Positions 13,751-61,300 of a stretch of 64,000 bases of DNA are shown here, one piece after another. Both the position numbers and the translations under genes were made by a program. The stretch covers positions 193,771 to 257,770 of the forward strand of contig JAUCBJ010008313.1 in assembly GCA_032718475.1 (NCBI GenBank), read 5' to 3'. Origin of the DNA: Nemertoderma westbladi (taxonomy: Eukaryota > Animalia > Xenacoelomorpha). Position 1 is the stretch's first letter, and the number at the start of each line of letters is the position of its first letter. The notes below the pieces were generated by a model that saw only the letters and a list, made by a program, of their open reading frames with translations, had not been told where the DNA came from and made no database searches.

Positions 13751-14479
13751 TGGACGCATCTCACTTCGTATGCATTCCTCGTATGCAAATACTAGGAAAT
13801 GCATAGGAGCGGGTTTGCGGTGATTTGCGTGAGAATTTGTCTGGTGGGTATCAAAATAAAATTTTATTTTCAAAATTTTTGGAAAATTAAAAAATTTAAA
13901 AAATTAGAAGTGAACCCAAGACAATTCCAAATGCTGTGTATAGACGCGTTTTAGAATTCGTCTATAGAGATACAGTAATTTGAAAAGTCGTGAAGCCTGG
14001 AAAATAGCATTTAGAAACCATGGTGAAGGCTATATTACATAGGAGTGTAAATTGAGTTTAGCAATTTCCACAGATTGGTGCCAACAGTACAACAACCAAG
14101 GTGCTAAAGGTTAGTAGCACCAGAGGCGTACACGGACCCCACTCAGTAGTTTGCAGTGAAGTGAGATGTTCGATTATCAAACCTGCGGGTTTGGTATAGT
14201 CGAGCACTGAGACTATTGTCCTTTCTAACTACTGTAGTTTAGTACAAGTAATGGGAGTAGTTTGGGCATCAAAAAGTGAGTTGGTCACGGCCAGTTTATC
14301 TCCAAAGTTTTGCGCTATGCATGGGAATTGGTTAGAGGATAGTTAGGAATGAGACGGGATCTAGAGAGTCGAATCTGAACTGCTGGAAGGCGGGGGGGTT
14401 CGGGAGGTCTGTCCTTCGGCGGCATCTAACTGATTTACCCACAGTGTAATTAGTTACGTAACGGACCCTATTGGGATAT

Positions 14480-17400
14480 ATGTATGTATATACGCGGCTT
14501 ATAATGGAGAAGGAAATTAGAGCTCAACTGCGGAGAGGATTTACTGCCAGAGAGGAGGCGGAACTACCATTTGCCCGACCCGGGTGCAAAGACTCGAACG
14601 TTTACTACCATGGGAGGTCGGTAATGGAATTGAATAGGAAGTATAAACCCGCGTATGATAAAGAATTGAGGAGGGAAAGAATGAGAGCGTTGGGAGACCG
14701 TATGGAAGTTTTGCGGAAGGAGTATCGCACTCGGTATCCCTACGATTTTGCGTTAGACGTATGCGACATTAGTGCAGACCCGGACGAGGAGATCGCGCGG
14801 CTGTACCATATGAACATGTTTTTACGACACGACGAACCTCTACCTGCAGTCCGAGATCAGTTCGACGGAATGCATCTGTACCGGAGGACTCGAGGCAAGG
14901 ATCAAGAGACGCCAAAGGTCTTCAGTGTATACAAGTAGTTCTACAAATGTGGTGAATGCATGAATAAACAAGACGTGGCGATTCCCGATCGACTGGACAA
15001 GCAACATCCTGAACCGATATTAACGCGATGTCAAGCTCACCAGTTCCTTAGATACAACGAGGGAGGTTACCCAATGAGCAACCCGATGATCAGTATCGAC
15101 TTCAGCGGAAAGCGACCTCCGAGACCCATTACGCCGACCATTACGACATTAGATCCATATACGGAGATTAAACCCTGTTCGACACCCAGTTTGATAGAGA
15201 CGTCAGCGGCCATTTCGCTATACCGAGCCTATAAGGACCTAGAGGCGCGGCGCGAAGCGGCACGGGACTCGGGAACCAAACCCGCGGGTTTGGAGCTCTC
15301 GAGTCCCTGGACTACGTTTACTTCGCCTCACCGAGCGAGAAATCTCACGCCTGAGCATCAGGACGACATAGACGCGTTGCGGCAGGAGGATCGAGCGGCG
15401 AAGGCGAAACAATTATTCGAAGAGCGGGTAGCGGAGTATAATAAGACCGCGGATGACATCAGGAGGAGACGAGGAGAGTGACCGGATTTGTTCCACAGGC
15501 CGTATCTCAACCCCGAACGGTGTATTATTCCGACGGCAACGAACCTGCAATATTGGTAGATCACCCAGAGTCGCGAGAAGCGATTAGATTCTTGCCGATG
15601 GTGAGGATGTCGGATCATTGGAACGTCGAATGTCTACGGGAAGTTTTATGCGCGAAGTTCTTGCGTGATGTCCCGATGCAGATCACAGACTACGACACGC
15701 TTGACAAGATTGGAGCTCCGGGAAAGGAGAGCAAGTTGTTTGGATGGTTGGATAAGTACATAAAGGTATGGGTCGCGGTGGCTACATTCCCAGACGATGA
15801 GGAGGTAGACCAGACGTGGCTGAGGAGAAAGGGTTCTTACACCCGATATGATGACCACAAGGCTATCGAGCGCATGTGGGTGGACCCCATCCCATCCGAC
15901 GAGATTCAGCGTCAGTGGAGGAAAACGGAGGAATCACTACAGGATTGGAGAGTGATGTTCTACGACAATGAAGGAGGTTCTCATCAAGAATGCTTAACTA
16001 GCAAGTGCATTCAAATTCGCACGGCAGATGGTGTGACTCATGTGTTTATGCGCGTAAGGGCGGACCGAGAGAGACTGGAGCCCATAATAACGACACAATA
16101 TCGTAAAGGGAAGGATCCCAGAGAACAGATTTTGGAGGTATGCAGGCGAGGAGGTATGCACGGAGCGGGGCGTATCGACGCCAGGATGCTACCCAAGAAG
16201 GTTAGAGAGGCGATTCTCAACCAAGATTACGTCAAGGTGGGATCGGGAGTCCAGAGCGATTTGGAGAGTGACTTCAACGCCATGACTGATTTGGAAGATA
16301 GATTGCCGAGACCGTTTGTCGACACCAAGCTATTGTTGCTATGGGCACAGGATATTGGAATTTATAGGGAGTATCCCAACTCTGCCAAGACTGGTTTGGG
16401 TTTCATAGCGCATTTGTTGTATAATTGGGACTTCAAGTTGAAGATGCAGAAGAGATACGAGGAGGCGTATGGTGAATATAACACGCCACCGGGAGCGGAG
16501 TTCAAATCCCACTTCAAGCGGCAAGCGTTAGTGTATTGGAGCATCTGCGCGCCACCCTGTGTGTCACTGCAATATTATTTGGTGCTTGAGTCGAACACGG
16601 TAACTTGTTTATTAGCGGATATAGTTGCGCGAGTTTTGAAGCATCATCCATTGGTATTCGGAGGAGATCAATATGTTCACTTGAAAGGGGGAATCCAATC
16701 TGATGTGATGAAGCGTTTCTTAACCCCGTTCTTCAACCAATCATTAGAGAATACGTCGATGGTTAGGAGAGGATTAGCGATATTTGAAGGAATATATCGA
16801 CAGAACATCGGAGATTTGGGAGACCGACCGTCGATGGAGTATCCGACGCCAGAGGCCTTGGAGAAGTGGTTCGGGAATCAAACCCGCGGGTTTGGTACTC
16901 CCTTCCACTCGGAGGCTGATAGACCTGTTAGAGAGGGTTGGCCGGAGATGTTAGTAGAGGTATTCGGAGTGGATCTTCCGGTGGAGAAGACATATGAACG
17001 CGGGAGGAAATATTGGAGATAGAGGACAAGGGCGAGGATGTTTACTTTGTTCCGGATCGACAACCTCTGACCGGAGAGGACGACAACATATTAGACATTG
17101 GGAAAGAAGGAACTGCGAAACCGATTGGAGACCTCATATATGAGGGGGCCTGGTTTCCACAAGCGCGTAGGTGCAAGTTGTGCGGCAGCACAAGGCACAA
17201 TCAAAAATCAAGTGACGCAGTAGTAGAGGCGGCGCATAAGGTCTGCCGTTGGTGTAATGAGACCGACCATTCGTTTCATACGTGCACCGTCTTCATTTCT
17301 CAATGTGGATATTGTGGGGTAAAGGGACATCGTAGCGCGAGATGCCAACTGCGAGACGATTCCTTCCAAAACCATAGCGCCAACCTACTTCGGGAGATGC

Positions 17401-18205
17401 TAGATAAGTGGGAGGGTGTGGCCGATTACCACATCCAAGCGCAGATGCGTTGGTTACCGTTTAAAGCAGGATACAGATTTTGGGCAGTAGACCCATCACA
17501 CGTTGCGTATGAGCCGTATCTACAGTCGTTACCACAATATCAGGAGCTAATATTGACCGCTCAAGATCTTCCGCAGAACACTGGAGTCATCGGGAATACT
17601 TCAGACAGTTAAACATGGATAACAAATATACTTGGAACTTTGTTGCTATTTGCGACCATATAACGAAAGGTCTATTTTTGGAAACTAGAAAGGTGGTGCG
17701 CGCGCGAGGAGATTGGAGGATGGCGGCTATACAATACCATAACGAGTTCCTATTGACTCACGTACCGGTGGGGTCATTGACCGTTGAGAGGATCAAGGAA
17801 CAGCGAACCGCAGCGCCCACAGCGACAACCGTTGGAGCTCAAGGCTTGCGGAGAGAACCAGGAGGAGAGGTCCAAGACAAGCATCAAGTCAAGGACGACC
17901 ACTATCATTCAATTATAGAGGCACAATGATTGCAGTGCATGGCTCAAGGCACGTCCGAGAAAGCGCGTGTGCAATTGCAGAAGGAAGAGTTGGCGGAAGC
18001 GACCACAGGAGCACGACAATTGGGACGAGGCCGAGGGAGAAGCACCAGCCGGGAATCAGTCGGGGCTCAGGGAACATCGTCGCCGGTTCCGGGGAGTGAC
18101 GCCTCACAGACGCCGTCAACAGAGTCTACAGGGGGTAGACTGGTGTATCTGGGAAGGGGGCGGAAGAGAGGAGCGAGCCCGAAGAACCCAGGAGCAGGTC
18201 GGTAA
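14480..18205 (+). pseudogene. Accessory ORF (copy 1) in the env position: unknown N-terminal region, DEDDy WRN/EXD/Mut-7-like 3'-5' exonuclease, three CCHC knuckles, basic RG-rich tail
   Basis: Pieces 14471-14938, 14960-15481, 15478-17022, 17013-17612, 17615-17929 and 17930-18205 join using copy 2. FYDNEG (ExoI), CIQI, ILNQDYVKVGSGVQSD (ExoII), FVDT, GLGFIAHLL, W...LQYYLVLES (ExoIII-like); CKLCGSTRHNQKS[S/C], CRWCNETDHSFHTC, CGYCGVKGHRSARC. Confidence 0.75.
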
Positions 18206-25517: not shown

Positions 25518-25632
25518 AGAGTCGAATCTGAACTGCTGGAAGGCGGGGGGGTTCGGGAGGTCTGTCCTTCGGCGGCATCTAACTGATTTACCTGCAGTGT
25601 AATTAATTACGTAACGGACCCTATTGGGATAT

Positions 25633-28600
25633 ATGTATGTATATACGCGGCTTATAATGGAGAAGGAAATTAGAGCTCAACCGCGGAGAGGATTTACTGC
25701 CAGAGAGGAGGCGGAACTACCATTTGCCCGACCCGGGTGTAAAGACTCGAACGTTTACTACCATGGGAGGTCGGTAATGGAATTTAATGGGAAGTATAAA
25801 CCCGCGTATGATAAAGAATTGAGGAGGGAAAGAATGAGAGCGTTGGGAGACCGTATGGAAGTTTTGCAGAAGGAGTATCGCACTCGGTATCCCTACGATT
25901 TTGCGTTAGACATATGCGACATTAGTGCAGACCCGGACAAGGAGATCGCGCGGCTGTACCATAGGAACATGTATTTACGACACGACGAACCTCTACCTGC
26001 AGTCCGAGATCAGTTCGACGGAATGCATCTGTACCGGAGGACTCGAGGCGAGGATCAAGAGACGCGAAAGGTCTTCAGTGTATACAAGTTGTTCTACAAA
26101 TGTGGTGAATGCATGAATAAACAAGACGTGGCAATTCCCGATCGACTGGACGAGCAACATCCTGAACCGATATTAACGCGATGTCAAGCTTACAAGTTCC
26201 TTAGATACAACGAGGGAGGTTACCCAATGAGCAACCCGATGATCAGTATCGACTTCAGCGGAAAGTGACCTCCAAGACCCATTACGCCGACCGTTACGAC
26301 ATTAGATCCGTATACAGAGATTAAACCCTGTTCGACACCCAGTTTGATAGAGACGGCAGCGGCCATTTCGCTATACCGAGCCTATAAGGACCTAGAGGCG
26401 CGGCGCGAAGCGGCACGGGACTCGGGTACCAAACCCGCGGGTTTGGAGCTTTCGAGTCCCTGGACTACATTTACTTCGCCTTACCGAGCGAGAAATCTCA
26501 CGCCTGAGCATCAGGACGACATAGACGCGTTGCGGCAGGAGGAGCGAGTGGCGAAGGCGAAACAATTATTCGAAGAGCGGGTAGCGGAGTATAATAAGAC
26601 TGCTTTCTGGAGACTGGAGGAGACGAGGAGAGTGACCGGATTTGTTCCACAGGCCGTATCTCAACCCCGACCGGTGTATTATTCCGACGGCAACGAACCT
26701 GCGATATTGGTAGATCACCCGGAGTCGCGAGAAGCGATTAGATTCTTGCCGATGGTGAGGATGTCGGATCATTGGAACGTCGACTGTCTACGGGAAGTTT
26801 TATGCGCGAAGTTCTTGCGTGACGTCCCGATGCAGATCACAGACTACGACACGCTTGACAAGATTGGAGCTCCGGGAAAGGAGAGCAAGTTGTTTGGATG
26901 GTTGGATAAGTACATAAAGGTATGGGTAGCGGTGGCTACATTCCCAGACGATGAGGAGGTAGACCAGACGTGGCTGAGGAGAAAGGGTTCTTACACCCGA
27001 TATGATGACCACAAGGCTATCGAGCGCATGTGGGTGGACCCCATCCGACGAGATTCAGTGTCAGTGGAGGAAAACGGAGGAATCACTACAGGATTGGAGA
27101 GTGATGTTCTACGACAATGAAGGAGGTTCTCATCAAGAATGCTTAACTAGCAAGTGCATTCAAATTCGGACGGAGGATGGTGTGACTCATGTATTTATGC
27201 GCATAAGGGCGGACCGAGAGAGACCGGAGCCCATAATAACGACACAATATCGTAAAGGGAAGGATCCCAGAGAACAGATTTTGGAGGTATGCAGGCGAGG
27301 AGGTATGCATGGAGCGGGGCGTATCGACACCAGGATGCTACCCAAGAAGGTTAGAGAGGTGATTCTCAACCAAGATTACGTCAAGGTGGGATCGGGAGTC
27401 CAGAGCGATTTGGAGAGTGACTTCAACGCCATGACTGATTTGGAAGATAGATTGCCGAGACCGTTTGTCGACACCAAGCTATTGTTGCTATGGGCACAGG
27501 ATATTGGAATTTATAGGGAGTATCCCAACTCTGCCAAGACTGGTATGGGCTTCATAGCGCATTTGTTGTATAATTGGGACTTCAAGTTGAAGACGCAAAA
27601 GAAATACGAGGAGGCATATGGTGAATATAACACGCCACCGGGAGCAGAGTTCAAATCCCACTTCAAGCGGCAAGCGTTAGTGTATTGGAACATCTGTGCG
27701 CCACCCCGTGCGCCACTGCAATATTATTTGGTGCTTGAGTCGAACACGGTAACTTGTTTATTAGCGGATATCATTGCGCGAGTTTTGAAGCATCATCCAT
27801 TGGTATTCGGAGGAGATCAATACATTCGCTCGAAAGGGGGAATCCAATCTGATGTGATGAAGCGTTTCTTAACCCCGTTCTTCAACCAATCGTTAGAGAA
27901 TACGTCGATGGTTAGGAGAGGATTAGCGATATTTGAAGGAATATATCGACAGAACATCAGAGATTTGGGAGACCAACCGTCGATGGAGTATCCGACCCCA
28001 GAGGCCTTGGAGAAGTGGTTCGGGAATCAAACCCGCGGGTTTGGTACTCCCTTCCACTCGGAGGCTGATAGACCTGTTAGAGAGGGTTGGCCGGAGACGT
28101 TAGTAGAGGTATTCGGAGTGGATCTTCCGGTGGAGAAGACATATGACCGCGGGAGGAAATATTGGAGATAGAGGACAAGGGCGAGGATGTTTACTTTGTT
28201 CCGGATCGACAACCTCTGACCGGAGAGGACGACATCGTATTAGAAATTGGGAAAGAAGGAAGTGCGAAACCGATTGGAGACCTCATATATGAGAGGGCCT
28301 GGTTTCCACAAGCGCATAGGTGCAAGTTGTGCGGCAGCACAAGGCACAATCAAAAATCATGTGACGCAGTAGTAGAGGCGGCGCATAAGGTCTGCCGTTG
28401 GTGTAATGAGACCGACCATTTGTTTCATACGTGCACCATCTTCATTTCTCAATGCTGATATTGTGGGGTAAAGGGACATCGTAGCGCGAGATGCCAACTG
28501 CGAGACGATTCCTTCCAAAACCATAGTGCCAACCTACTTCGGGAGATGCTAGATAAGTGGGAGGGTGTGGCCGATTACCACATCCAAGCGCAGATGCGTT

Positions 28601-29871: not shown

Positions 29872-32108
29872 TGTTACGGTATATGGCGCTGTACCTACAT
29901 TAGTCCGTTATACAGTATAATATATTAGCCGTTATACAGTATAATATATTAGCCGTTATACAGTATAATATATTAGCCGTTATACAGTATAATATATTAG
30001 CCGTTGTACAGTATAATTATTTAGATAAGACATAATAACGCGCAATGATATTTAGATAAGGAAAATAAAACGCCCATATATTTGAATTCATCCATTTTGT
30101 ATAGTATGTAGCCCGACCTACGTAATTTTGTAATAGGATATAAGTAAATAGTTCCAGTGTAGCAAGTTTCCTGTTGGACCCTGGATATAAGCTTGCTGTT
30201 ATTAGCCTCAATAGGCCTAGCTATGTATTGGTCTTAATTTTCTTTATAATTGCGCTAAATTAATCTTTGTGCATCATATTATTAGTACCGCTAAATTAAG
30301 CATCGCCAAAATTACCATATATGGTAATAATTTGTGATTTCGGGAGCGAGAGGTTCACAATCCGGCTTCCTTATTGGCCTAAATGCTTCCAGGTTGGTCT
30401 AATGGTAGCGCGGATTGGGGAGCCAATGAGAGAGCGATTGCATCATCCTCCATGAATCACCTATAAATAGGCGGTATTTCCGGTATGTGCTTTGTAATTC
30501 TTTGTAATTTGTAACCCTAGTCGTAATTTAGACTAATTATTCTGTATTTTGCGTATTTCTGCCTTTTCCAATTATTTCTTGTAATAATTCGCTAATTTGT
30601 AATCTCTGCTGATTTCTTGGTGTGTTTCTCAATCAATCCCAATGATTACTGTTAATAACAACTGGAACTATTATTTCTACCCTTTAGTTAACGGTTCTAT
30701 GTGATTCCTTTCGATGCAATAATCCCACAGAATTTTCTTAGACTGTCAGACTTTGTGATTTGCATGCGCTGTTACGGTAGCTACCCATTAGATGGAGGGC
30801 TGAGGTACTGGTATGCGCGGCAGGCGCATCGGGGGGTTAGCGACGAAGGGAGTGCGGAGGATTCAAAGGCAAGCAACGCTGGCGGGGAGGTCACCGTTGC
30901 AGTCGGTCAGTTAGCATTGTAGAGTGAAGACTGCTCGCTGGTACAGTAATTAAGGGCTGATGATCCAGATTTTGTCTCTATTTTGTAGTATTAGGGGGGC
31001 AGGAATTGGGTTAGTTAGGAAGCCTAGATGTACCCGGGAGAGGCCTGCGTTCCTTATATTGCGAGCTAAACTGTAGACTATGTCGCAAACTATGTGCGAA
31101 CTGTAGATTGCGAGTTGTGAACTGTGAATTGCTGACTGCTGATTGTGAATTGTGCATTAAGAACTATAATTGGTAAGTATAAACTATTGATTGTTACGCT
31201 GATTGGTGTGTTACTAAAGTGTGCCTAATAAATCACGAATGCTTGGATAGGTGCTCTTTTCCCTTTGATTGATTTCTATTTCTTAGTTTACTATAAATAA
31301 TTACTGATTAGGTCGAAAATAATACGGTATTTAGACTGTTACTAGTGCAACCCGTTACGTAATAAATTAGAATTACGCATTCTGGAACACTTAGTAATTA
31401 GTACGCTGTTGCATATTTGTGACTGTAATTAATTAATAAAATTAAGAATTTGTATGCAGCATAGCGGAGAGTAGTTAAGGTAATAATTTGGAGTACCGTA
31501 AACTATTCACGCTGGGCGGTTATTTGAAATCAGCGGGCAATAAGTTAGATCGCAGTATCCAGTACGCAGCACGCATTAGTAAATTGCTGGCCTAAAGCCA
31601 GCCGGAGGCAAGTTTAGTCCCATAGTAGGTATCATTCCCTGATATAAAAACTGTACCAATTTTTTGATTATTTAAATATTCTCACATTCACATTCCGTTA
31701 GGGAACCCCAGTATTTGCGATTAGAAAAGACGTAATTATTAGCGCATTTTAACAGTAAAATTAGGCCATAAGAATACACTCTGAGTGTAAAGCCTCTCAC
31801 ACTCGTCTTAAGTAAGCTTAGGGAGCCGATTCGGGTTTATTGTTTTGGTTATTCCCGCATGGCTCATATGTTCGAACAGTTAGCTCTCTATCGAGCGATC
31901 GGTAGAGAAAGGAACAAGCGATTAGTAGGAGCCGTAGAAAATTAGTAAAATATATTAGCGGACGGCAGGTTAGCGCCATCCAACGGTAAGTAGCAGTTTT
32001 GTATTTAGCAGCCCTACAGTAGTAATAGCACGCTCCTGATTACCCCTGTTTAACAGTAGAGCAGTCTTTGTGTCTTTATTGGTTAGGCAGGGACCCGCTA
32101 GTTTAACA
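29872..32108 (+). repeat. LTR 3 (3' LTR, 2237 bp)
   Basis: TGTTACGG...GTTTAACA followed directly by the TSD AGGTC and non-element sequence. Confidence 0.95.
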
Positions 32109-34698
32109 AGGTCCGTGAGAGAGAGAGAGTAAGGGACAATGAGGTCCGCGAGAGAGAGAGTAAGGGACAGAGGGGTCCGAGAGTGAGATTAGAGTGAAGA
32201 CGTAGAAAATTGTGTGAAGAGAGAGCACAATTGTCTCGAACAGAGGTACAAGGTGCAACAAGGTACAGAGGTGCAACATAGCTCGCGATTGCACCAAGGA
32301 GGGTTAGCAATAACATACCCAGGGGGCCGGCCTAGAAAGCCGACCCCAAGAAAAGAACTCCACCCCACACCATATATTAGATTGGGTTCCAGCGGAATTG
32401 AAGCGCACTTAAGGTTGATGCTATCTTCTCACCTGGAAGATAGCATGGGGGGGTGTAAGTGGATTCAATTCCGCTTCATTACCCACCAGAAAATGGGACC
32501 AGTGGGATTTTAGCAATATGTTGGGAATACGAGATTACGAATATTAATCTCGTCTCATAACCAACATTGGGGGGGGGGGGGGGGGGGCACAAGCACTAAA
32601 GCTACAGATAGAGACGAGAGGTCAAACCACCTCAGAGGGAACATAGCTAGTAGAAGCTAGCAGCGGGGGGAAACACTCACAGGGAGTGCCAAAGTGACAA
32701 TTAGTATATTAGCCAATAGTGGGGAGGGAAGCACGTGATTAGACATAGGAAAGCATCCATTGGGTACAGAGGGCCAAAGTACAGTAAGAGGTGAAATCAA
32801 TATTCGTGTGTGTTAATCATATATTATCCTACATTACTGATTTACCGGTCAGTTGATTCAGTTACTCAGTTGCAGACCGGTCATAGTTAATGACCGTCAC
32901 CGCCATTAACATCAGCAATTAATCTGTATTTTCTGCTATCATATTTTCTGTATCGTTACTGATTTATTGTGCTATTATCGTTCGAACCACCAATATTCAG
33001 AAACAACAGAAACTCTTATTGTTTTCCCCAACGGCCTTCGGCCAAAGCAACTAGCACGACTGCCCAGCAGAATGGTGACGCGTACATATCTACCCCGGTC
33101 GGGATCTCCGATCCTGTCACATTAACTGGTTGGATATGCAGTGCTTTTGTAAACCTAAAAACAACACAACGTGGGAGGATCTTTCGTGAGGATTCTCCCA
33201 CACCAGGCATAAGTGTTGCAACATTAGTATATAGAAAGTGGAGCTTACTCGGGGCGTTTTACAATTTCCTAGGAATTATATGTTCTGAAATTTGCCACGC
33301 TTGTAGTTTTCGTTAGTCTAAGAATTTTCCACGTTTTTTTTTTTTTAATTTAGATGTTCAACATTTCCAAATTGGCAACCAAATGTGGATTTTTGTCCCA
33401 ATTTGGAAACTACTAGCACTAAATGGTTAAATTCGGAGTGAAGGCGACTGAAATCCTCAATGTGCGGATAAATTTGAAAGTTTGATTAAAAAATTTCGTT
33501 TAGCCAAATTTGGCCATTTTGGCCAGATATTAATTTTACCCAAAAAATAACCCAATGGTATATTTTTACGTTGTTTTGTCGCTATCACCAAAGCAGTTTG
33601 GCCATTTCGATTTAAACTCATACCGAATACATATCCAATACAGTTGCTCATCGGGTCGAAAAATATTGGCCAAAAATATTGAACAGTATGCCAATAATTA
33701 AACTTTTAGCCAATTTTTGGCCAAATTGATTTTTTTTGGATTTTAAATCATTATAACTCTGTTTCTTTTAATTAAAACGAAACCGTTCCACTTGGGTAAT
33801 ATATAGGGAATGTAGTAGTTCCATACTGTTATTGATATTGTGCGTTGCCTGAATATTAATGGCTGCAAATTGGAGCCGAAAAATGGTAATTTTGGAAGTT
33901 GACAAAATAGGTTTTGGTAGAAAGTGGTTTTCTCCGAATTATGTCATTATATTTTTCTGAAACTTTAACACCTCTACATGATCTTAACAGCTCTACATTT
34001 TATCAATTTAATGTTAATGCAAAAAGTCTTTGCTTCTTGTAGAAAATAAGGGCCAAACTTAAGAAATCTGTATTTTCTGGAAATTTAGCCCAAAATTAGG
34101 CACTCAAAATGCCATATATTGTATCGGCTTAAATTGCATTTTTCCGTAAATCCTTCAAATTAGTTTCTTAGAATGCCAGTTTCTTAGATTGGCCAAAAAA
34201 ATTTTAACTTTGAATTTTTTTTAATTTTAGCCTCAGATTACTTCAAAATTGTTGCTGCAGGTATAAAACCTGCCTTCAAAATTACTTATTTTACCAATTT
34301 ACCCAAAATACTGTATATTTATTGATAAAGGACCAGTTATGGTATCATATTGATTTGTTTCTTACAAATTAATATTTAGTAAAGGTTCTTACGCTATCTA
34401 GTGCTATTACACCTATATTCGATCTAATTTCTACTGTAAAGGCCTAATAAACCTCAAATTGAATACGTGATGCTTATTGGCTAAGCTCCTTGCCGATAAA
34501 GCTACTGTAGTATATACTTGTGGTTGTGCTATGATTGATTTTACTCTCTTTTTGTTATTGTTTAACAGAAGAAGTCGCACTGCCCATGCAGAGGCTTTGA
34601 TCCCCGGTCAAGTTTAATTGACTGGTGGTTATTACAGGCCTAAGGTCTAAACTTAAAGAGTTAATAATTGAAATATAATTATTCATCGCTACATTGTA

Positions 34699-34767: not shown

Positions 34768-36061
34768 CTTTATTATTTGCTTAATATATCGCCGATATTA
34801 CGTAATCATGGAGGTTTTACACGCGCCACAACAGGTGGGTTGCTGTAACTAAGTATCAGTGATAATCTGGACAATTGTATCAGATTTGTGTATTTCATAC
34901 CTCTGAATTACTAAATAATTAATATATGGCGATATTTCAGACCATTTATGTAAGCAAAGCTCTCATTATTAATTACACCACGATTGAGAGTTGTCACAAA
35001 TTGAATACTGTAACGATATAGATATAATTAGACCCAAAGACTTGTCACTATACGTTTCCCCTAAAGGGAAACACAATCACCAGACTTGAGTTCTTACAGA
35101 ATTAAATAGTCAGTCATTTGCTTGTTATACTGTGTTGTCACACCCTCCCGGTATAGTATCTCAGTCAAATACAATAGATAATCAAATAACGTATTGAACT
35201 AAGTGAAATATAGAGCAAATCAATGCATCGAAGGGAAAAAGGGTAAATAAACAGATACAGTGAGCGGCCCTTGTTGACAGGTACACTAGCGCAATCCCGT
35301 TTATTGTATCAGACCGGACATCTTGCCTTCATTTTTGCATGGTTTATTAAGTAACAGAAAAGAGTCAAAATATATTAAAATTGAGAGTGAAAGAACATAA
35401 TTTACTAAAAGCGCTAACACAAATCCTCCTATTATCGTATTATCCTCGCAATTACCTCGTAATTTAAATTTAAATCAAACCTGTCTGTTCAATCACTATC
35501 TGTCATTGCAACTTAATTTGGTTGATTCTTTCTTTCTTTGTTTATTTATATATTTATTTTTATATTGTATTTCTGTCTACTACCTGTAAAATAAATTCAA
35601 GCTACATCGACATTACCGAATCGCTACTCATGATTGACATCCCCCCCCCCCCCCCCATTTATGTAAACACATACAATTATGAAGGTTTTACACTCTCAGA
35701 AAGGGATATTGGAAGCTTGGACGGCCAAAATTGGGTAACAGATAACATTATAGAAAGTGTCATTGGTGTAATGTGCATTGAGAATGCACAGAAAGTACGA
35801 GATTTCAGCACTCGCTTTTTTTATATACTATGAAGCAAAGGAGGTTATGAATCATTAAAAATATGGAGCAGATTAAGTGACTTTTCATCAGATTACTTAT
35901 TCTTCCCCATCCATTGTAACAACCATTGGACACTGCTTACCTTTTCACCCGCCACATGGGAGATTTGCTATTTCAACTCACTTGGTGGATTGGAATTAGA
36001 ACTCATAGATGACTTCAAATTATGGGTATCTAATGAGGCTAATCGTTTCAGTATCCCTCTA

Positions 36062-37645
36062 TGTTCGCGGTATTTCAACTTTCCATAACGCGAGTTGAAT
36101 ATTTTTGTATTTTATTAAAATTGATTATTCCGATATTACTACTGGGTGCGGGACCATGGGTTTTGGGCACATTCAATAAACTGGGGGCGATTTATGGGCG
36201 AACTTTGGGGCAACTTACAGGGTACGGGAATAATTTCATAGTTATAAGGGCCAGGGGGGATGGAAAATGCAAGCAGTATTCAGGTTAGCCTGAGTACTAT
36301 TAGGCCCTGGCCAACTTCCTGCTGCCTGTAGGGGTGGATTTGGTAATGCGCCAGGCCTAAAGGACAAGGACTGCCCTTAGCGGTCCCTGGCCAACGGCAG
36401 CTACTACGAGCCTGAAAAGGACTCGGAACGCTGACTGCTTGTGTCAGGGATTTGCGACGGGCACCGACGGCCCCTTAGTAGCCAAGCCGTTCTGGGTCTC
36501 GATGATCGAACCCCGGGGTTCGTGAGGGGTGGAGCGGACACGCGAACAGGTGGCCAACTTAAGACTGCCCCCTGACCTAAGCCGTACTGGTTCTCGATGA
36601 CCGATCCCTTCGGGGTTCGTGAGGGGTGGGACGGACATGCGAAAGGGCTGGCCACAGGACTGGTTTGACAGGACTGCCCTTAGCGGTCTCGGGTCAACTG
36701 CGGCTACTACGAGCCTGAAAAGGACTCGGAACGCTGACTGCTTGACTGTGATTTGCGACGGGAACCGACGACAGACCCCTTAGCCAAGCCGTTCTGGTTC
36801 TCGATGATCGTTCCCTTCGGGGTTCGTGAGGGGTGGAACGGACACGCGATGGGGTCGAAAGACAAAGGACTAGACTCGACTAGACTCTACTGGCCTACCG
36901 ACTGTTCGGAGCAGTTTCTCGGCTGCTGAAGCAACTACGAGCCTGAAAAGGACTCGGAAAGCCTAGGTGGTTGGGTTTCTGTGATGAACTGACGGACCCC
37001 TAGCCAAGCCGTTCTGGTTCTCGATGATCGAACCCTTCCGGGTTCGTGAGGGGTGGAACGGACACGCGAACGGGTCCACCGACACGACAGACTCTTAGCC
37101 AAGCCGTACTGGTTCTCGATGACCGAACCCTTCGGGGTTCGAGAGGGGTGGTACGGATACGCGACAGAGTCTACCGACTGGACCGACCCTTAGCCAAGCC
37201 GTGCTGGTTCTCGATGATCGTTCCCTTCGGGGTTCGTGAGGGGTGGAACGGACACGCGACAGGGTCGACCGACACCGACACTACGGCACTAAGACTGGGA
37301 CTGAGGGAAAATCTGGGGAACATTAGGTAGGCTAAAATTCTGAGCGAACAGTGGGTTATTAAATAATATACCGTAGGGATTTATATTATCGTGTATAATT
37401 ATTGTGAATATTTGGTGTATATTGATTTGGGGAAGCCCAAAATTATTCTTAATCAAGGTTCAACAGAGTTCAGTTACATTAAAGAGTATATCCAACTAAT
37501 GCAGCTTTTCTCAACCGCAAACTTGCATCTTAGAAATATTCCCTCCCCACAATCAATATCCGGTGACTGGCCGGGGCTCGGTGGTCTGTTAAGTCACGTC
37601 TCCAGCATCGGCGTTTTTCCCCCTGGTGTAGGAATAACGGCAACA
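36062..37645 (+). mobile_element. Solo LTR (1584 bp) of an unidentified LTR retrotransposon
   Basis: TGTT...AACA termini; 5-bp TSD CTCTA at 36057-36061 and 37646-37650; removing it restores the interrupted reading frame; TATAAG at 36243. Confidence 0.8.
36365..37270 (+). repeat. GC-rich array of two interleaved hairpin modules (6x ~70-bp UUCG-capped module; 3x GAAA-capped module)
   Basis: tagccaagccgtwctggttctcgatgaycgwwcccttcggggttcgtgaggggtggaacggacacgcga at ~36480, 36580, 36781, 37001, 37096 and 37191; ctacgagcctgaaaaggactcggaa at ~36404, 36706 and 36934. Confidence 0.85.
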
Positions 37646-39884
37646 CTCTATGTGATTTTCATATTTCTCCTCCACTCCCTAAGAAGTTTGCAAAACTTAT
37701 CCTAAATAAGGAGCTGATTGAAGCAGTTATCGATACCTCTATTCAGTCCTTTCGTGTATATCTTCATTTATTTGTGTCATCAAAATCAGTTCTAGTGAAA
37801 GCTACAGACTCAGTGCCCTCACAACCCACTAACACCCAGGTATCTTCCACCCAACCAGTTTCTCCTCAAACCCCTCAATCCTCACCAACTCAGCTAGGGT
37901 CTTTTAACCAGCCTCCTGTTGCACAAACTGGCAAAAATCTATGCCCTTCTTGCCAAAAAATGATTGCAGCCAATCAAAGTGGTAAGTTGCAGAAGCATAA
38001 GAATGTGAAGAGTGCATGATCCTTTATAGAATCTGGTTTTATAATTTCCCACTTAACTAGCCTTACATATCTAAACCTCAAAATCCAGCAATTACATCTA
38101 GAGTGGGGGATACTATATCAATAGCAGAAGATCCAAGCACCACCAAGGTATGTGTGAAATCACCCTCGGCAGACTCAAACGTATATGGTGTTGAACCTGA
38201 TCTTCCTGATTATAATCCATCACATGCCCCTAATTTCTTTTGGGGACCCATTTGTGGCAAAGATCTTGTTATTTCAGTTGATGAACTATACTCTACTGAT
38301 GTACATTGGTGTAAGAACTGCTTCAAGTTGCCTTCAGGTAAAGCAGGGAAAGATTACATTGAGGAAACTAACAGTCTTTTGTCTGGCTGGGAGTCAGGCT
38401 CTCCTTTAGAGGGTGTAGCATTCAAACTTGTTAGGTTAAAGATGTGGGAATGTGGTAAATTCGAGGATTTACTTCGTGACTCTCTAGCAATTCAAAAAAA
38501 GCTTCAACAATCTTATCCTGCTAACAAACCTATGGATACTGCCAGGATTTTGAGTAAACTTGTTTTTGAAGAAGGTAAGATAAGTGCAGCGATTAGATTA
38601 CTTGAGAATTCGGATGGGAGGTTCCTAGATCTCAGTAGCAGCGTTGTTGAAGAACTATATTCGAAACATCCACCAGCTGCCAGATTCTCACTTGATTATA
38701 CACTAAGTTAATTCCTCCCAGCACCTTCTCATCTATTACAGGTGAAATGGATTTCAAAGCTGCTTAGGGATAAGATGTATTTCGGGTCCTTCTGGCCTTG
38801 ATGCAGAATCTTTAAAGAGGATTCTATGCTCAAAAGAGTTTCGCTCAAAGTCCACTGAACTCTGCCAAACTATCGCTAAAGTAGCCCAGCGCCTTGCTAC
38901 AGAGCCCGTTGACCCTAATAGCATTGAAGCCCTTGTAGCCTCTCATCTTATACCTTTAAATAAAAATCCTGGAGTTCGTCCGATAAGTGTTGGGGAAGTC
39001 CTTAAGTGGCTAATAGGTAGAATTATAGTAAGTGTTGTGAAAGGGGATGTAAAACACACTGCTGGGCCTCTACAGACGGCGGGAGGGCATTCAGCTGGAG
39101 TAGAAGCAGCAATACATTCTTTTGTGGAAGAGTTTAGAGAATGAGGGTATTTTAATGATTGATGCATCGAATGCCTTTAACATGTTGAACAGATCAGTAG
39201 CCCTCCTCCATATCATCAGAATTCTTTGCCCTGCTATATCCCTATATGTCATTAACACTTATCGTAGGAAAATACTGTGTTGTTATTGAGCTTGGGTCCA
39301 ACGAAGGAAATACCCAAGGTGACCCTTTAGCATTCCCCTGGTATAGCATATCCATTAATCCACTTCTCTACCACTATCACACTTGAATAAAGTCCATCTG
39401 GTTTGCTGATGACTCCAATGGCATAGGTATTAGGTAATATTCTAGATATCAAGAAATACTTTCCTGGTTGGTGACATCTATACTGTTGTTAGTTTTAACG
39501 TTTGAAGAATTCCAGACTGTCTAACTGTCAGTCTAGTCTGTCTGTTTATCAGACAATCTGTCCATCGGTCAGTCGAAATTTAGGAAAGGACACTACCCCA
39601 CTAACACATTAGTTAAAGAGGTTTTCCATTTCCGTTTCCAATGTGTATTTCATTCATTACTTTTCGACTGACAGACAGGCCAACAGACACAAAGACAGAC
39701 AGGCAGACAGATATGCATGCAGGCAGGCATGTAGAATGACAGGCAATCTAGAATACATGAAACATTAAAACTGACATTATAAATATGATCACTAAACAGG
39801 AAAAGTCCTATAGCGAAATTTGTACATTGCATGTGTATCTTAAATTTTGTCAGACTGACCAACTGACAGACAAGCAGACAGCTA

Positions 39885-53258: not shown

Positions 53259-54268
53259 CCCTATTACCACTGGGGTGTTTTGACCATTAGCACCACTACT
53301 GGGGGGGGGGGGGGGGGGGGGGGGATTCGGCCCACGCACTATATTTTTGTAATCGTCCAATGAAATCCTACAAAATTTGGGCTGTTGGTGAAACAACTAT
53401 AGATGAACACTACCAAACCTTAAAAAGTTAAAATTTCATAAGCAGGGAATCGTAATTTTGATGATAAATAAAAGTAGTCCCAGGACAAAATTACAAAATT
53501 TTTCCTTTTTCTAAAAACTAATAGTGTGGCAGTGTTGGCTAGATTTAGTAGGTTTTTCAAGACGCTGAATCGAATGTGATTATATTCCATTTCCAAAAAT
53601 TGAAGTGGATGCTATTTTTCGTGCACCTAATAAGTGGGCGTGGCACTTCAAATTTTGAAAAATTAGATATTCAGAAAATGCCCCTAATTTTTTATTTCAA
53701 CGCATCTTTATAGGTTTTCTGGGCCGCTGAATCGATTGAAAGTAATATAGAAGCCTGAAGACTTAGTGGTTCGCCATTTTTGGTGCACCAAAATTAGGGC
53801 GTGGCACTTCAAATTTTGAAAAATGAAATGAAACATTTTGGTGCAACAAAAATGGCGAACCACTAAGTCTTCAAGCTTCTATATTACTTTCAATCGATTC
53901 AGCGCTCCAGAAAACCAATAAAAACGCTTCGAAATCAAAACTTTAGTAAATTTTTCGAATAAAGTAATTTTGAAATTTTAAAGTGCCACGCCCTAATTTT
54001 GGTGCTCCAAAAATGACGTACCACTACACTTACATACTTGTATAGAGCATTAGAGTAATCCAAACCAATAAAAATAAATAAAAATAGCCCAAACATAAAT
54101 AATTACTAAATCACGAATGACTTTGTATAATTCGAAAATTTCAAAAAATTTGGTGCTGGAGACCAAATTTTAAGGTGGCACCCACATCTAAAATTGCAAC
54201 GTCGTTTTTTTGCAAAAGATGCCCACACCCCACCTCCCCCCCCCCCCCCCCCCCCAGTGGTAATAGGG
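53259..54268. mobile_element. piggyBac-type non-autonomous element (MITE), 1010 bp
   Basis: TTAA at 53255-53258 and 54269-54272; 17-bp TIR CCCTATTACCACTGGGG; internal direct and inverted repeats (gggcgtggcacttcaaattttgaa). Confidence 0.9.
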
Positions 54269-55310: not shown

Positions 55311-55375
55311 TTGCAGAGCGTGAGCTGAGCATGTTCAATAGTTTCTTAATATATCCAATTCCACTATTAATTATT

Positions 55376-58300
55376 ACTAGAAAGGCATTTCCTGAAGGAA
55401 ATGCAACCACGAAGCTAAGGAAAATTAAACAAAGGGCCACAATTATGGTTTGTTGCTTAGCCTAGTTTAGTAGCATTTGCCAATAAATAACTTATATTCC
55501 TATGGAAACTAGAAATTCTCTGGAACTGTTGGTTTTACCTTTGAAAAAAGATTCAGTCCAGATTGTGGTTCAGATAACACATACCAAGTTTCAGAAAATA
55601 TTGTAGTTTATGTCCAAATTACCGATTTTCTATCAAAATGCATCTGTTTGCAGTGGTTGTCATGGAAACTGAAAAATAGAACAATGTAATTCGGATGCAG
55701 AATAAGTCATATAATGGGGGTAGGTCTTGGTCCCAAGTCATAATACTATTAACTTGTGCTTCAAATAATCATTTTATAAATTTTAACATTTGTTTAGTCT
55801 TGTTGCTATGGTAACTGGATTTTCTAATTAACCTCGAACGGCTTGGATATGGACCTTATATATTAGTTGCAAAACCCCAAGTTTATATATATTACAGTTT
55901 TGCTACAAATAGTGTATTGAATTTAGACTTGAATGATATAGACTTTAATAAACTCCAGTTACCATGGTAACAAGATATTTCTGGAATGATTTGAGTTTCA
56001 CTAAAAGTTCCAACTAGTGGTCCAGATAACACATACCCAGTTTTGTAAAATTTTATCGCGAATTCTATGTCCAAATGAATAATTTTTGTATAATAACATC
56101 TGTTTTCTGCGGTTGTCATGGTAACTGAAAAATATAACAATGTAATTCGGATGCAGAATAAGTTATATAGTGGGGGTAGGGGTTGGTCCCAAGTCATAAC
56201 AACTTGCCCTTAGGCTTCAAATTATCATTTTGTAAATTTTAACATCTGTTTAGCCCGGTTGCCAAGGTAACTGGATTTTCTATTTAGCCTCAATCGGATC
56301 TGCTATTGACCTTATAGTTGTGTTGCGAAACCCCAAGTTTATATCTATTATAGTTTTCCTACAAATAGAGTTATAAATATTGACTTGAAATACATAGACT
56401 TTTTTTGAAGTCCGTTGCCATGGAAACCAGATTTTTCCTGGATATGAGACCCGGCCCAAAAGATGCGCCTCGACGAGTAGTATATACATGGAAAATTTCA
56501 GGGTACTTTTAAAGGCTAGTTTTTTCCCCGGTCAAAAAAAACCAAATCTGCTCCATACAAGTAAAATAGCCCACTATGAATAGACCATCTCAGCTAAGGA
56601 AAATCTTTCTTAGCGAAAGTAGTTGATTTTCCTTAGCTTCGTGGATCTTCGCAACACTAAGATTACGAGAAAGGCATTTCCTAAAGGAAATGCAACCACG
56701 AAGCTAAGGAAAATTAAACAACCGGCCACACTTTGGTTCGTTGCTTAGCCTCTGTAAAAGCCTTTGCTGAATTGCCCCGTTATTTTTACGAGAAAGGCAT
56801 TTCCTAAAGGAAATGCAACCACGAAGCTAAGGAAAATTAAACAAACGGCCACACTTTGGTTCGTTGCTTCTAGCCTAGTTTAGTAGCAATTGTCAATAAT
56901 TAACTTCTATTCCCATGGAAACTAGAGTTCTCTGGAACTGTTGCTTTAACCTTTGAAAAAAAATTCAGTACAGATTGTGGTTCAGATAACACATATACTG
57001 AGTTTCAGAAAATATTGTAGTTTATGTCCAAATTACCGATTTTCTATCAAAATGCATCTGTTTGCAGTGGTTGTCATGGAAACTGAAAAATAGAACAATG
57101 TAATTCGGATGCAGAATAAGTCATATAGTGGGGGTAGGGGTTAGTCCCAAGTCATAATACTATTAACTTGTGCTTCAAATTATCATTTTATAAATTTTAA
57201 CATCTGTTTAGACTTGTTGCTATGGTAACTGTATTTTCTAATTAACCTCAAACGGCTTGTGATATGGATCTTATAGATGAGTTGCAAAACCCCAAGTTTA
57301 TATATATTACAGTTTTGCTACAAATAGAGTTATCAATATAGATTTGAATGATATAGAGTTTAATAAACTACAGTTACCATGGTAACTAAATTTCTGGAAT
57401 AATTTAAGTTTCACTAAAAGTTCCAACTAGTGGTCCAGATAACACATACCCAGTTTTGTAAAATTTTATCGTGAAGTCTATGTCCAAATGAATAAGTTTT
57501 GAATAAAAACATCTGTTTTCAGCGGTTGTCATGGTAACTGAAAAATAGAACAATGTAATTCGGATGCAGAATAAGTTATATAGTGGGGGTAGGGGTTGGT
57601 CCCAAGTCATAACACCTTAACCTTAGGCTTCAAATTAACATTTTATAAATTTTAACATCTGTTTAGCCCGGTTGCCAAGGTAACTGGATTTTCTATTTAA
57701 CCTCAATCGGCTCTGCTATGGACCTTATAGTTGTGTTGAGAAACCCCAAGTTTATATCTATTATAGTTTTCCTACAAATAGAGTTATAGATATTGACTTG
57801 AAATACATAGACTTTTTTCTAAGTCCGTTGCCATGGAAACCAGATTTTTCCTGGATATGAGACCCAGCCCAAAAGATGCGCCTCGACGAGTAGTATATAC
57901 ATGCAAAATTTCAGGGTACTTTTAAAGGCTAGTTTTTTCACCGATCAAAAAAAACCAAATCTGCCTCACACAAGTAAAATAGCCCACTATGAATAGACCA
58001 TCTCAGCTAAGGAAAATCTTTCTTAGCGAAAGTAGTTGATTTTCCTTAGCTTCGTGGATATTCATAACTCTACGAGAAAGGCATTTCCTAAAGGAAATGC
58101 AACCACGAAGCTAAGGAAAATTAAACATGACGGCCACACTTTGGTTCGTTGCTTAGCCTCATTAAGTAGCAATTGTCAATAATTAACTTCTATTCTCATG
58201 GAAACTAGAGTTCTCTGGAACTGTTGCTTTAACCTTTGAAAAAAGTTCAGTAGAGATTGTGGTTCAGATAACACATATACTGAGTTTCAGAAAATATTGT

Positions 58301-61300
58301 AGTTTATGTCCCAATTACCAATTTTCTATCAAAATGCATCTGTTTGCAGTGGTTGTCATGGAAACTGGAAAATAGAACAATGTAATTCGGATGCAGAATA
58401 AGTCATATAGTGGGGGTAGGTGTTGGTCCCAAGTCATAATACTATTAAATTGTGCTTCAAATTATCATTTTATTAATTTTAACATCTGTTTACTCTTGTT
58501 GCTATGGTAAATGGATTTTCTAATTAACTTCGAACGGCTTGTATATGGACCTTATAGATGAGTTACAAAACCCCAAGTTTATATATATTACAGTTTTGCT
58601 AGAAATAGAGTTATCAATATAGACTTGAATGATATAGAGTTTAATAAACTACAGTTACCATGGTAACTAAATTTCTGGAATGATTTAAGTTTCACTAAAA
58701 GTTCCAACTAGTGGTGCAGATAACACATACCCAGTTTTGTAAAATTTTATCGCGAAGTCTATGTCCAAATGAATAATTTTTGTATAAAAACATCTGTTTT
58801 CGGCTGTTGTCATGGTAACTGAAAAATAGAACAATGTAATTCGGATGCAGAATAAGTTATATAGTGGGGGTAGGGGTTGGTCTCAAGTCATAACACCTTG
58901 CCCTTAGGCCTCAAATTATCATTTTATAAATTTTAACATCTGTTTATCCCGGTTGCCAACGTAACTGGATTTTCTATTTAGCCTCAATCGGATCTGCTAT
59001 GGACCTTATAGTTGTGTTGCAAAACCCCAAGTTTAAATCTATTATAGTTTTCCTACAAATAGAGTTATAAATATTGACTTGAAATACATAGACTTTTTTT
59101 GAAGTCCGTTGCCATGGAAACCAGATTTTTCCTGGATATGAGACCCGGCCCAAAAGATGCGCCTCGCCGAGTAGTATATACATGCAAAATTTCAGGGTAC
59201 TTTTAAAGGCTAGTTTTTTCGCCTATCAAAAAACCCCAAATCTGCCTCACACAAGTAAAATAGCCCACTATGAATAGACCATCTCAGCTAAGGAAAATCT
59301 TTCTTAGCGAAAGTAGTTGATTTTCCTTAGCTTCGTGGACCTCGAACGGTTTGTATATGGACCTTATAGATGAGTTGCAAAACCCCAAGTTTATATATAT
59401 TACAGTTTTGCTACAAATAGAGTTATCAATATAGATTTGAATGATATAGAGTTTAATAAACTACAGTTACCATGGTAACTAAATTTCTGGAATAATTTAA
59501 GTTTCACTAAAAGTTCCAACTAGTGGTCCAGATAACACATTCCCAGTTTTGTAAAATTTTATCGTGAAGTCTATGTCCAAATGAATAAGTTTTGAATAAA
59601 AACATATGTTTTCAGCGGTTGTCATGGTAACTGAAAAATAGAACAATGTAATTCGGATGCAGAATAAGTTATATAGTGGGGGTAGGGGTTGGTCCCAAGT
59701 CATAACACCTTGCCCTTAGGCTTCAAATTAACATTTTATAAATTTTAACATCTGTTTATCCCGGTTGCCAAGGTAACTGGATTTTCTATTTAGCCTCAAT
59801 CGGATCTGCTATGGACCTTATAGTTGTGTTGCGAAACCCCAAGTTTATATCTATTATAGTTTTCCTACAAATAGAGTTATAAATATTGACTTGAAATACA
59901 TAGACTTTTTTTGAAGTCCGTTGCCATGGAAACCAGATTTTTCCTGGATATGAGACCCGGCCCAAAAGATGCGCCTCGTCGAGTAGTATATACATGCAAA
60001 ATTTCAGGGTACTTTTAAAGGCTAGTTTTTTCGCCTATCAAAAAACCCCAAATCTGCCTCACACAAGTAAAATAGCCCACTATGAATAGACCATCTCAGC
60101 TAAGGAAAATCTTTCTTAGCGAAAGTAGTTGATTTTCCTTAGCTTCGTGGATTATCTTTTACGAGAAAGGCATTTCCTAAAGGAAATGCAACCACGAAGC
60201 TAAGGAAAATTAAACAAACGGCCACACTTTGGTTCGTTGCTTATAGCCTAGTTTAGTAGCAATTGCCAATAATTTACTTCTATTCCCATGGAAACTAGAG
60301 TTCTCTTGAACTGTGGGTTTTACCTTTGAAAAAAGATTCAGTCCAGATTGTGGTTCAGATTATAACACATATACCGAGTTTCAGAAAATATTGTAGTTTA
60401 TGTCCAAATTACCGATTTTCTATCAAAATGCATCTGTTTGCAGTGGTTGTCATGGAAACTGAAAAATATAATAATGTAATTCGGATGCAGAATAAGTCAT
60501 ATAGTGGGGGTAGGTCTTGGTCCCAAGTCATAATACTATTAACTTGTGCTTCAAATTATCATTTTATAAATAGTAACATCTGTTTAGTCTTGTTGCTATG
60601 GTAACTGTACTTTCTAATTAACCTCAAACGGCTTGGATGGATATGGAAATTATAGATGAGTTACAAAACCCCAAGTTTATATATATTACAGTTTTGCTAG
60701 AAATAGAGTTATCAATATAGACTTGAATGATATAGAGTTTAATAAACTACAGTTACCATGGTAACTAAATTTCTGGAATGATTTAAGTTTCACTAAAAGT
60801 TCCAACTAGTGGTGCAGATAACACATACCCAGTTTTGTAAAATTTTATCGCGAAGTCTATGTCCAAATGAATAATTTTTGTATAAAAACATCTGTTTTCG
60901 GCTGTTGTCATGGTAACTGAAAAATAGAACAATGTAATTCGGATGCAGAATAAGTTATATAGTGGGGGTAGGGGTTGGTCTCAAGTCATAACACCTTGCC
61001 CTTAGGCCTCAAATTATCATTTTATAAATTTTAACATCTGTTTATCCCGGTTGCCAAGGTAACTGGATTTTCTATTTAGTTATCTTTTACCTTAAAATAC
61101 TCTGTAGTTGATTTAATAAGTGTAAGAGACCGTATTATTGCTGTATCGGTGTTTTTAGAGGATCTAAGACCTACGAGAAAGGCATTTCCTAAAGGAAATG
61201 CAACCACGAAGCTAAGGAAAATTAAACAAACTGCCACACTTTGGTTCGTTGCTTAGCCTCGTTTAGTAGCAATTGTCAATAATTAACTTCTATTCCCATG

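What the first reader, a model, noticed from the sequence alone, without database searches (positions are those of the whole stretch)
36470..37270. Tandem array of a structured RNA module with compensatory base changes inside a solo LTR
Seen: six ~70-bp modules folding as nested stems: CGAACCC-UUCG-GGGUUCG cap, UUCUC/GAGGG, and CCGUUC/GAACGG (CCGUAC/GUACGG in copy 5, a double compensatory change), with near-invariant internal loops (GAUGA; UAGCCAAG/ACACGCGA). Modules 3-6 each have a different but complementary closing stem: GACCCC/GGGGTC (36774/36851), GGACCC/GGGTCC (36994/37072), AGACTCT/AGAGTCT (37089/37166), CGACCCT/AGGGTCG (37184/37261). Covariation argues for selection on RNA structure rather than neutral satellite expansion. 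The array lies downstream of a TATAAG, so it is probably transcribed. It does not match hammerhead or twister cores. Inference: an unknown multimeric RNA element (protein-binding, export/packaging, IRES-like or a new ribozyme).
Basis: partly seen in the sequence, partly recalled or inferred. Interest (0 to 1): 0.75.

Follow-up and report, generated by a model that had tools for sequence, protein, structure and literature searches.

The report
Kinked RNA hairpin array in LTR
A high-copy jumping-gene end repeat carries nine hairpin-forming units of two kinds, six of them with a kink-turn sequence, which likely serve as repeated docking sites for a host protein on the element's RNA.

Summary
The array is real and larger than reported. 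It lies in a 1,584-bp solo LTR (36062-37645; TG..CA, 5-bp target duplication, empty-site contigs in two studies) that interrupts the Ulp1-protease frame of a non-LTR retroelement; contig depth over it is hundreds-fold above the flanks. Six A modules alternate with three unreported B modules (order B A A B A B A A A). Covariation is confined to the closing stems (own-partner pairing best of 720 permutations); the cores show none beyond shuffles, and the perfect cap described occurs in 1 of 6 copies. All modules fold better on the + strand. Module A holds a standard box C/D-like k-turn sequence under a cUUCGg loop (6 of 6; no other match in the window); module B has an invariant GAAA loop and a loop-E-like motif. 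No Rfam family, ribozyme core or outside relative was found. Best reading: a multivalent protein-binding platform in a long R region, likely for Snu13/15.5K, aiding export or stability. Against: a competing Watson-Crick register is 4-5 kcal/mol more stable; transcription and binding are untested. Bolder reading: B loops dock in receptor-like loops of A.

The parts
36062..37645 (+). Solo LTR, 1,584 bp, TGTT...AACA ends
   Evidence: Depth step and empty-site joint 36056->37646 in X1 and X3; ends printed
36057..36061 (.). 5-bp target-site duplication, left copy
   Evidence: joint with 8 letters fitting both sides
37646..37650 (.). 5-bp target-site duplication, right copy
36243..36248 (+). TATAAG, with GC-box-like words at 36144-36196 upstream (inferred promoter)
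   Evidence: function inferred
36275..36298 (+). 10-pair hairpin opening at the inferred +1 A, 32 nt after the TATA
   Evidence: -12.5 kcal/mol on +; start site inferred, not mapped
36372..36463 (+). Module B1: long irregular stem, ACUA/GAA loop-E-like motif, GAAA loop
36469..36556 (+). Module A1 (cap loop shortened by 2 nt)
36566..36653 (+). Module A2 (most diverged)
36675..36763 (+). Module B2
36774..36856 (+). Module A3
36903..36990 (+). Module B3 (same cap, different lower stem)
36994..37077 (+). Module A4 (loop UUCC)
37089..37172 (+). Module A5 (two-sided change in the middle helix)
37184..37267 (+). Module A6
37358..37425 (+). ATTAAA followed by a GT-rich tract (inferred poly(A) site); second ATTAAA at 37478; the only AATAAA is at 36175, upstream of the TATA
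   Evidence: function inferred
35834..36061 (+). Host element: Ulp1-like protease frame, interrupted by the LTR
   Evidence: Pfam Peptidase_C48 E 3.9e-6; frame open across the empty site
37651..39440 (+). Host element continued: decayed ORF with reverse-transcriptase region (non-LTR, CRE-like by recalled motif)
   Evidence: 455 relatives at E<=1e-10, many with PF00078; frames

Best explanation
The stretch is an array of nine hairpin modules of two kinds inside a high-copy solo LTR, and it likely works in the element's RNA as a multivalent protein-binding platform whose A modules would fold into k-turns and bind a host L7Ae-family protein, most likely Snu13/15.5K. Shown: LTR context, high copy, + strand folding, covarying closing stems, k-turn sequence in 6 of 6 A modules, variable module number among copies. 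Inferred: a promoter at 36243-36275 and poly(A) site near 37358 put the array in a ~1.1-kb R region, so it would sit at both ends of the genomic RNA and in solo-LTR transcripts; if the promoter lies downstream instead, it would still be in the 3' end of the genomic RNA. Inferred: the naked module would rest in an extended Watson-Crick register and switch to the kinked form on protein binding; repeats would raise occupancy; the bound RNP would promote export and/or stability of the unspliced RNA, as multimerised CTEs do.
For: Closers pair best with their own partners (1 of 720 for A1-A6; 4 of 362,880 for nine) with two-sided changes at 3 positions in A3-A6. 10 of 10 segments fold better on + than on - as RNA, with 4-8 G-U pairs per module. 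A k-turn-hairpin scan (C-G closing pair, 3-nt bulge ending in U, G.A/A.G, capped stem) hits the six A modules and nothing else on either strand of 64 kb, and 1 of 2000 shuffled modules. The pair after the tandem is U.U in 4 of 6; Snu13/15.5K asks only for the G.A/A.G pairs, the adjacent U.U and a pair closing the bulge (PMC1874613 discussion). Box C/D and U4 k-turns fold only on protein binding (PMC4382518 passages). RNA-type loops: cUUCGg in 4 of 6 A, GAAA in 3 of 3 B. Module number varies: 14 listed internal joints and an 886-nt X6 contig with one B and one A. Four CTE copies outperform one (PMC4829213 passages); long multi-stem export elements are known in retroelements (PMC11379458 passages).
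Against: In the nearest-neighbour model the competing register (UUCUCG/UGAGGG with a 5-nt bulge) is 4.0-5.4 kcal/mol more stable in A3-A6 (the model gives tandem G.A pairs little credit), and the six copies cannot tell the registers apart (92.7% vs 93.5% of cells paired). The k-turn scan was written after seeing the module. Core covariation is not above shuffles. The cap helix carries one or two U.U mismatches in most family members. The k-turn does not explain module B or the shared basal UAGC/GCGA (7 of 9 modules). All evidence comes from one LTR family; the parent element and any protein it encodes were not found, so an element-encoded partner is not excluded. The downstream function is by analogy only.
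Confidence: 0.42

Rival explanations
1. RNA-RNA self-assembly: the GAAA loops of B modules dock into the 4x4 internal loop of A modules, compacting or dimerising the genomic RNA for packaging, with the k-turn as an architectural hinge.
For: B has an invariant GAAA loop (3 of 3). The A loop keeps 6 of the 11 receptor positions (C2, A4, A5, G6, A8, G10; numbering of PMC10243134), and A2 and A5 move towards the canonical form (2 and 4 differences). The shortest variant seen keeps one B and one A. K-turns often position a hairpin for a tertiary contact (PMC5061560 passages).
Against: 4 of 6 copies differ from the canonical receptor at 5 of 11 positions, including core U3 (C in 5 of 6); all substitutions of the A8-U3 step greatly weaken binding (PMC10243134) and G6:C7 costs +4.3 kcal/mol (PMC2275092 section 15). 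A2 has a C.C mismatch at the 1-11 pair. By pair count the B loop is roughly 35-40 bp from its base and the A loop about 10, so neighbours could not dock without a bend. Keeping one B and one A is also what recombination between repeats leaves by itself.
Confidence: 0.16
2. Translation control in a long 5' leader: the array blocks scanning and forces shunting or internal entry to gag, or is itself IRES-like.
For: If +1 is 36275, nine hairpins of -30 to -48 kcal/mol and 9 ATGs up to 37214 precede any coding sequence. Loop-E and GNRA motifs occur in viral IRESs (recalled).
Against: Known IRESs are single ordered folds, not arrays with variable unit number (recalled); no Rfam IRES match; start site unmapped.
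Confidence: 0.12
3. 3'-end control: the folded array governs which LTR's poly(A) site is used, or bridges the upstream AATAAA to a distant cleavage site as in HTLV-1.
For: The only AATAAA (36175) lies upstream of the TATA; HTLV-1 has its signal in U3 (PMC1802088 passage); a U3-R hairpin 36214-36333 (-48.5 kcal/mol) could form only in the 3' copy.
Against: ATTAAA plus a GT-rich tract follows the array directly, so no bridge is needed; the modules are closed locally rather than forming one long stem.
Confidence: 0.1
4. DNA-level enhancer repeats or neutral satellite expansion; the folding is incidental.
For: Tandem repeats are common in U3 (PMC3601003 passage); unit number varies; 120-nt windows over the array have modest z-scores (-3.3 to +1.4); cores show no covariation.
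Against: Closer covariation, strand asymmetry with G-U pairs (as DNA the strands differ little), RNA-type tetraloops and a complete k-turn sequence are not expected from DNA-level selection.
Confidence: 0.12
5. A new self-cleaving ribozyme (A alone or an A-B pair), retrozyme-like.
For: Ribozymes occur in LTRs of retrozymes (PMC4918200, search listing); two docked hairpins with a loop-E motif recall the hairpin ribozyme (recalled).
Against: No Rfam ribozyme at E<=10; no CUGANGA core on either strand; several cuts inside R would fragment the repeat needed for strand transfer (inference).
Confidence: 0.07

Closest known systems
Standard k-turns of box C/D snoRNA and U4 snRNA (15.5K/Snu13 sites)
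   Same: 3-nt bulge ending in U, tandem G.A/A.G, C-G closing pair, U.U next to the tandem in 4 of 6 copies.
   Different: Next pair is C-G, so boxes C and D are incomplete; a strong competing register exists; repeated six times in a mobile element.
Retroviral/retrotransposon RNA export elements (MPMV CTE, MusD MTE, SERV-K/MER11 element, HERV-K RcRE in U3/R)
   Same: Structured cis element in or near the LTR; long multi-stem examples exist; copies add up in effect.
   Different: No sequence match known; built of two repeated module types with k-turn, UUCG and GAAA motifs; export not tested.
GAAA tetraloop / 11-nt receptor pair
   Same: GAAA loop on one module, a loop with AA step, C2-G10 and A8 on the other.
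   Different: Core U3 is C in 5 of 6 copies; 5 of 11 positions differ in 4 of 6.
ENE of the Evade (Copia93) retrotransposon
   Same: RNA motif in an LTR retrotransposon transcript that aids mobility (PMC12501189 abstract).
   Different: No U-rich internal loop in either module.
Retrozymes
   Same: Structured RNA inside an LTR.
   Different: No hammerhead core; LTR of 1.6 kb; nine modules.

Membership tests
Solo LTR of an LTR retrotransposon | TG...CA ends with short inverted repeats | tested here: met
   TGTT...AACA; pattern described in PMC3601003
Solo LTR of an LTR retrotransposon | 4-6 bp target duplication and an empty allele | tested here: met
   5-bp duplication; empty-site contigs in X1 and X3
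Solo LTR of an LTR retrotransposon | Parent with PBS, PPT, gag-pol; superfamily | tested here: inconclusive
   One X6 contig has a G-rich run before 36062; no genome held; not similar to the window's BEL LTRs
Standard k-turn | 3-nt bulge followed by G.A and A.G, flanked by C and NC helices | tested here: met
   6 of 6; C-stem 24 of 24 cells paired; definition PMC5061560
Standard k-turn | Kinked register is the one adopted | tested here: inconclusive
   Competing register 4.0-5.4 kcal/mol lower; copies do not discriminate
Standard k-turn | Binds an L7Ae-family protein | not testable with these tools
   needs a binding assay
Box C/D snoRNA | Box C RUGAUGA and box D CUGA (recalled consensus) | tested here: not met
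   AUGAUCG and GUGA in the copies; only chance C/D hits, E 2.6-8.6
SECIS | Long helix II, large internal loop, purine-pyrimidine pair at position 4 | tested here: not met
   7-bp cap, closed bulge, C-G at position 4; criteria from PMC1874613
11-nt GAAA receptor | Core U3.A8 and C2-G10, AA platform, G6.U7 | tested here: not met
   U3 in 1 of 6, U7 in 1 of 6; C2-G10, A4A5, A8 in 6 of 6
Known self-cleaving ribozymes | Match to the class's covariance model or core | tested here: not met
Known self-cleaving ribozymes | Self-cleavage | not testable with these tools
   bench assay
ENE | U-rich internal loop | tested here: not met
   no run of five T inside the array; loops
CTE-like export element | Promotes export of intron-containing RNA | not testable with these tools
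   reporter assay needed

The most novel reading that the evidence does not exclude
A retrotransposon has evolved a natural, expandable RNA nanostructure in its LTR: alternating k-turn/receptor and loop-E/GAAA modules with individually coded closing stems that self-assemble through a non-canonical tetraloop receptor and capture host Snu13, forming a snoRNP-like scaffold at both ends of the genomic RNA and in hundreds of solo-LTR transcripts.
Probability: 0.14. Interest if true: 0.86.

Novelty: new variant of a known kind. Interest (0 to 1): 0.58.

Why it matters
Little is known of the RNA signals that invertebrate LTR retrotransposons use to export, protect and package their genomes. Two new small motifs with textbook structural features, present in thousands of natural variants in one genome, are directly testable. 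A k-turn array in an LTR was not found in the literature searched. If it binds Snu13 it would be a new route by which a mobile element recruits a host RNP protein; if the modules dock, it would give a new GAAA receptor.

Tried and rejected
Rfam: 0 matches at gathering score in 64 kb; 4 chance matches at E 2.6-8.6 in 35500-38000. Relatives outside: exact and gapped module patterns gave 0 in viral contigs and 0 in metagenomes for A; the looser B pattern gave 9 metagenome and 12 prokaryote loci, all 21 read and judged chance: none has the hairpin, best BLAST E 0.05. A covariance model of A finds no seventh copy in the window (next hit E 0.22). No whole genome held. Expression: no RNA holder listed; X6 is only guessed to be RNA and is contigs. 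Family-wide variant table on A3 listed only 2 places because contigs are short, so it could not test covariation. m6A idea: DRACH not enriched (166 of 1000 shuffles reach 37). U6, SRP, CTE and hairpin-ribozyme resemblances were recalled leads and fail on inspection. One search used a mis-registered structure string; only one search is used for that register. Earlier scan notes: none. Host taxon not determined: BEL integrase relatives are 30-50% identical and spread over many animals.

Full report
Context. The finding lies in a GC-rich island (53-63% GC in 120-nt windows) with no similar sequence elsewhere in the window. No genome is held. Public runs hold it: 6 rows from 4 studies, five labelled organism A and one organism B; the best holder may be the source sample. 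Laying four runs on 35500-38200 shows summed contig depth of 107-305 in the flank bins and 31,621-138,607 between 36046 and 37683 in X1 and X3. The tool warns that this is no copy number; a contig identical to this flank has depth 50 in X3, so hundreds of copies or more is a fair inference. One contig in each of X1 and X3 joins 36056 to 37646. The sequence explains this as an element 36062-37645 with TGTT...AACA ends and a 5-bp duplication, the LTR end pattern of PMC3601003 (passages). It interrupts a Ulp1-like protease frame (Pfam C48, E 3.9e-6) that is open across the empty site and belongs to a decayed reverse-transcriptase element. The solo-LTR claim is confirmed; the parent is unknown.

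Anatomy. A: closing stem, UAGC/GCGA, a 4x4 loop, a helix with tandem U.G, the GAUGAY/NGA element, a 7-pair cap and a UUCG loop (4 of 6). B: closing stem, the same UAGC/GCGA in B1 and B2, a long irregular stem, ACUA/GAA, and a GAAA loop in an identical 25-nt core. Unit number varies: one search lists 14 internal joints (5 more joints not shown; some may be mapping between paralogous units), and one X6 contig holds a near-identical LTR with one B and one A.

Is structure selected? In the closers, yes: own-partner pairing is the best of 720 permutations for A1-A6 and within the best 4 of 362,880 for all nine; 5 of 9 arms rank their own partner first. In register, A3-A6 show two-sided changes at 3 positions and 2 mismatched cells in the 6 stem columns. 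In the cores, no: one two-sided change, reached by about half of shuffles, at a pair mismatched in two other copies. Family-wide, the cap helix mostly carries U.U mismatches. All 10 segments fold better on + than on - as RNA, with many G-U pairs; as DNA the strands differ little and A6 favours -. This points to RNA of the + strand.

Where in the transcript? GC-box-like words, TATAAG at 36243, an initiator-like A 32 nt later that opens a 10-pair hairpin, and ATTAAA with a GT-rich tract at 37358 suggest an R region of about 1.1 kb holding the array. Other TATA-like words lie at 37382-37418, which would put the array in U3. Either way it would be in the genomic RNA. None of this is mapped.

The k-turn lead. 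Read in a second register, A matches a standard k-turn (PMC5061560 passages): C-G closing pair, bulge GAU, G.A and A.G, then U.U (4 of 6; C.U and C.A in A2 and A5). My scan, written after seeing the motif, hits only these six places on both strands and 1 of 2000 shuffles. The profile fits Snu13/15.5K and not SBP2 (PMC1874613 abstract and discussion); such k-turns fold on protein binding (PMC4382518 passages). Against it, the Watson-Crick register is 4.0-5.4 kcal/mol lower in the model and the copies fit both equally. One low-depth X6 contig has upstream letters that pair fully only in the k-turn register (loose end before 36803); a single diverged copy is weak evidence.

The receptor lead. The 4x4 loop keeps 6 of 11 positions of the GAAA receptor and B supplies GAAA loops, but the core U3 is C in 5 of 6 copies, and measured substitutions at that step are strongly destabilising (PMC10243134 parts 2-4 of 7; PMC2275092 passages and section 15). 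It fails membership and stays a lead for a non-canonical contact.

Known families. Rfam gives nothing; no hammerhead core; no ENE-type loop (PMC12501189 abstract). Collections of viral, metagenome and prokaryote contigs hold no relative. The nearest functional kind is the structured export or stability element of retroelements (PMC4829213 and PMC11379458 passages; PMC1802088 passages for HTLV-1). Searches pairing k-turn terms with LTR or retrotransposon terms listed no paper whose title or abstract start describes such an array (also 51, 59, 60; listings only, and the library lacks most subscription papers).

Verdict. A real, previously undescribed two-module RNA array in a young, high-copy LTR, with structural selection shown for the closing stems and strand, a specific but unproven k-turn/Snu13 mechanism (0.42), and a bolder self-assembly reading (0.14-0.16). 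Evidence is from one family, and nothing functional is shown. Interest 0.58.

Noticed in passing
window 14462-17612 and 25615-28171: Tandem BEL/Pao elements (Peptidase_A17, DUF5641) carry an extra ORF region between integrase and the 3' LTR. The 521-aa frame has no Pfam, PDB or near homologue and one relative among 1.84 billion representatives (P0241, E 1.7e-7) with sub-threshold 3'-5' exonuclease and zinc-knuckle hints. Possibly a new accessory gene.
   Followed up: partly
window 2431-~5020, 18731-, 29872-32108: BEL LTRs of about 2.6 kb with TATAAA at 3021 and AATAAA at 4952, suggesting a very long R region here too; no A modules in them.
   Followed up: partly
window 2396-2430 and 32109-33223: The BEL array seems to split another LTR-like element (ends GCAACA at 33223) that holds a strong hairpin at 32385-32495 (z -6.0 on +, -8.9 on -).
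   Followed up: partly
window 35642-39440: Host non-LTR element has a Ulp1-like protease upstream of its reverse transcriptase; a related uninterrupted copy is present in X1 and X3 at depth about 120-150.
   Followed up: partly
window 36214-36333: Branched hairpin (-48.5 kcal/mol) spanning the TATA and inferred +1; could form only where U3 is transcribed.
   Followed up: no
window 36355-37330: GAC occurs 48 times on + and 9 on -; GACT 19 vs 1 (11 of 1000 shuffles); DRACH not enriched.
   Followed up: partly
run X6 records 26 and 27: Low-depth contigs with B and A cores in otherwise unlike sequence: diverged relatives of the modules exist.
   Followed up: no
window 55374-63683; 37-761; 53614-54014: Complex satellite of about 455-bp units, an 18-bp minisatellite and a 400-bp imperfect palindrome.
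   Followed up: no
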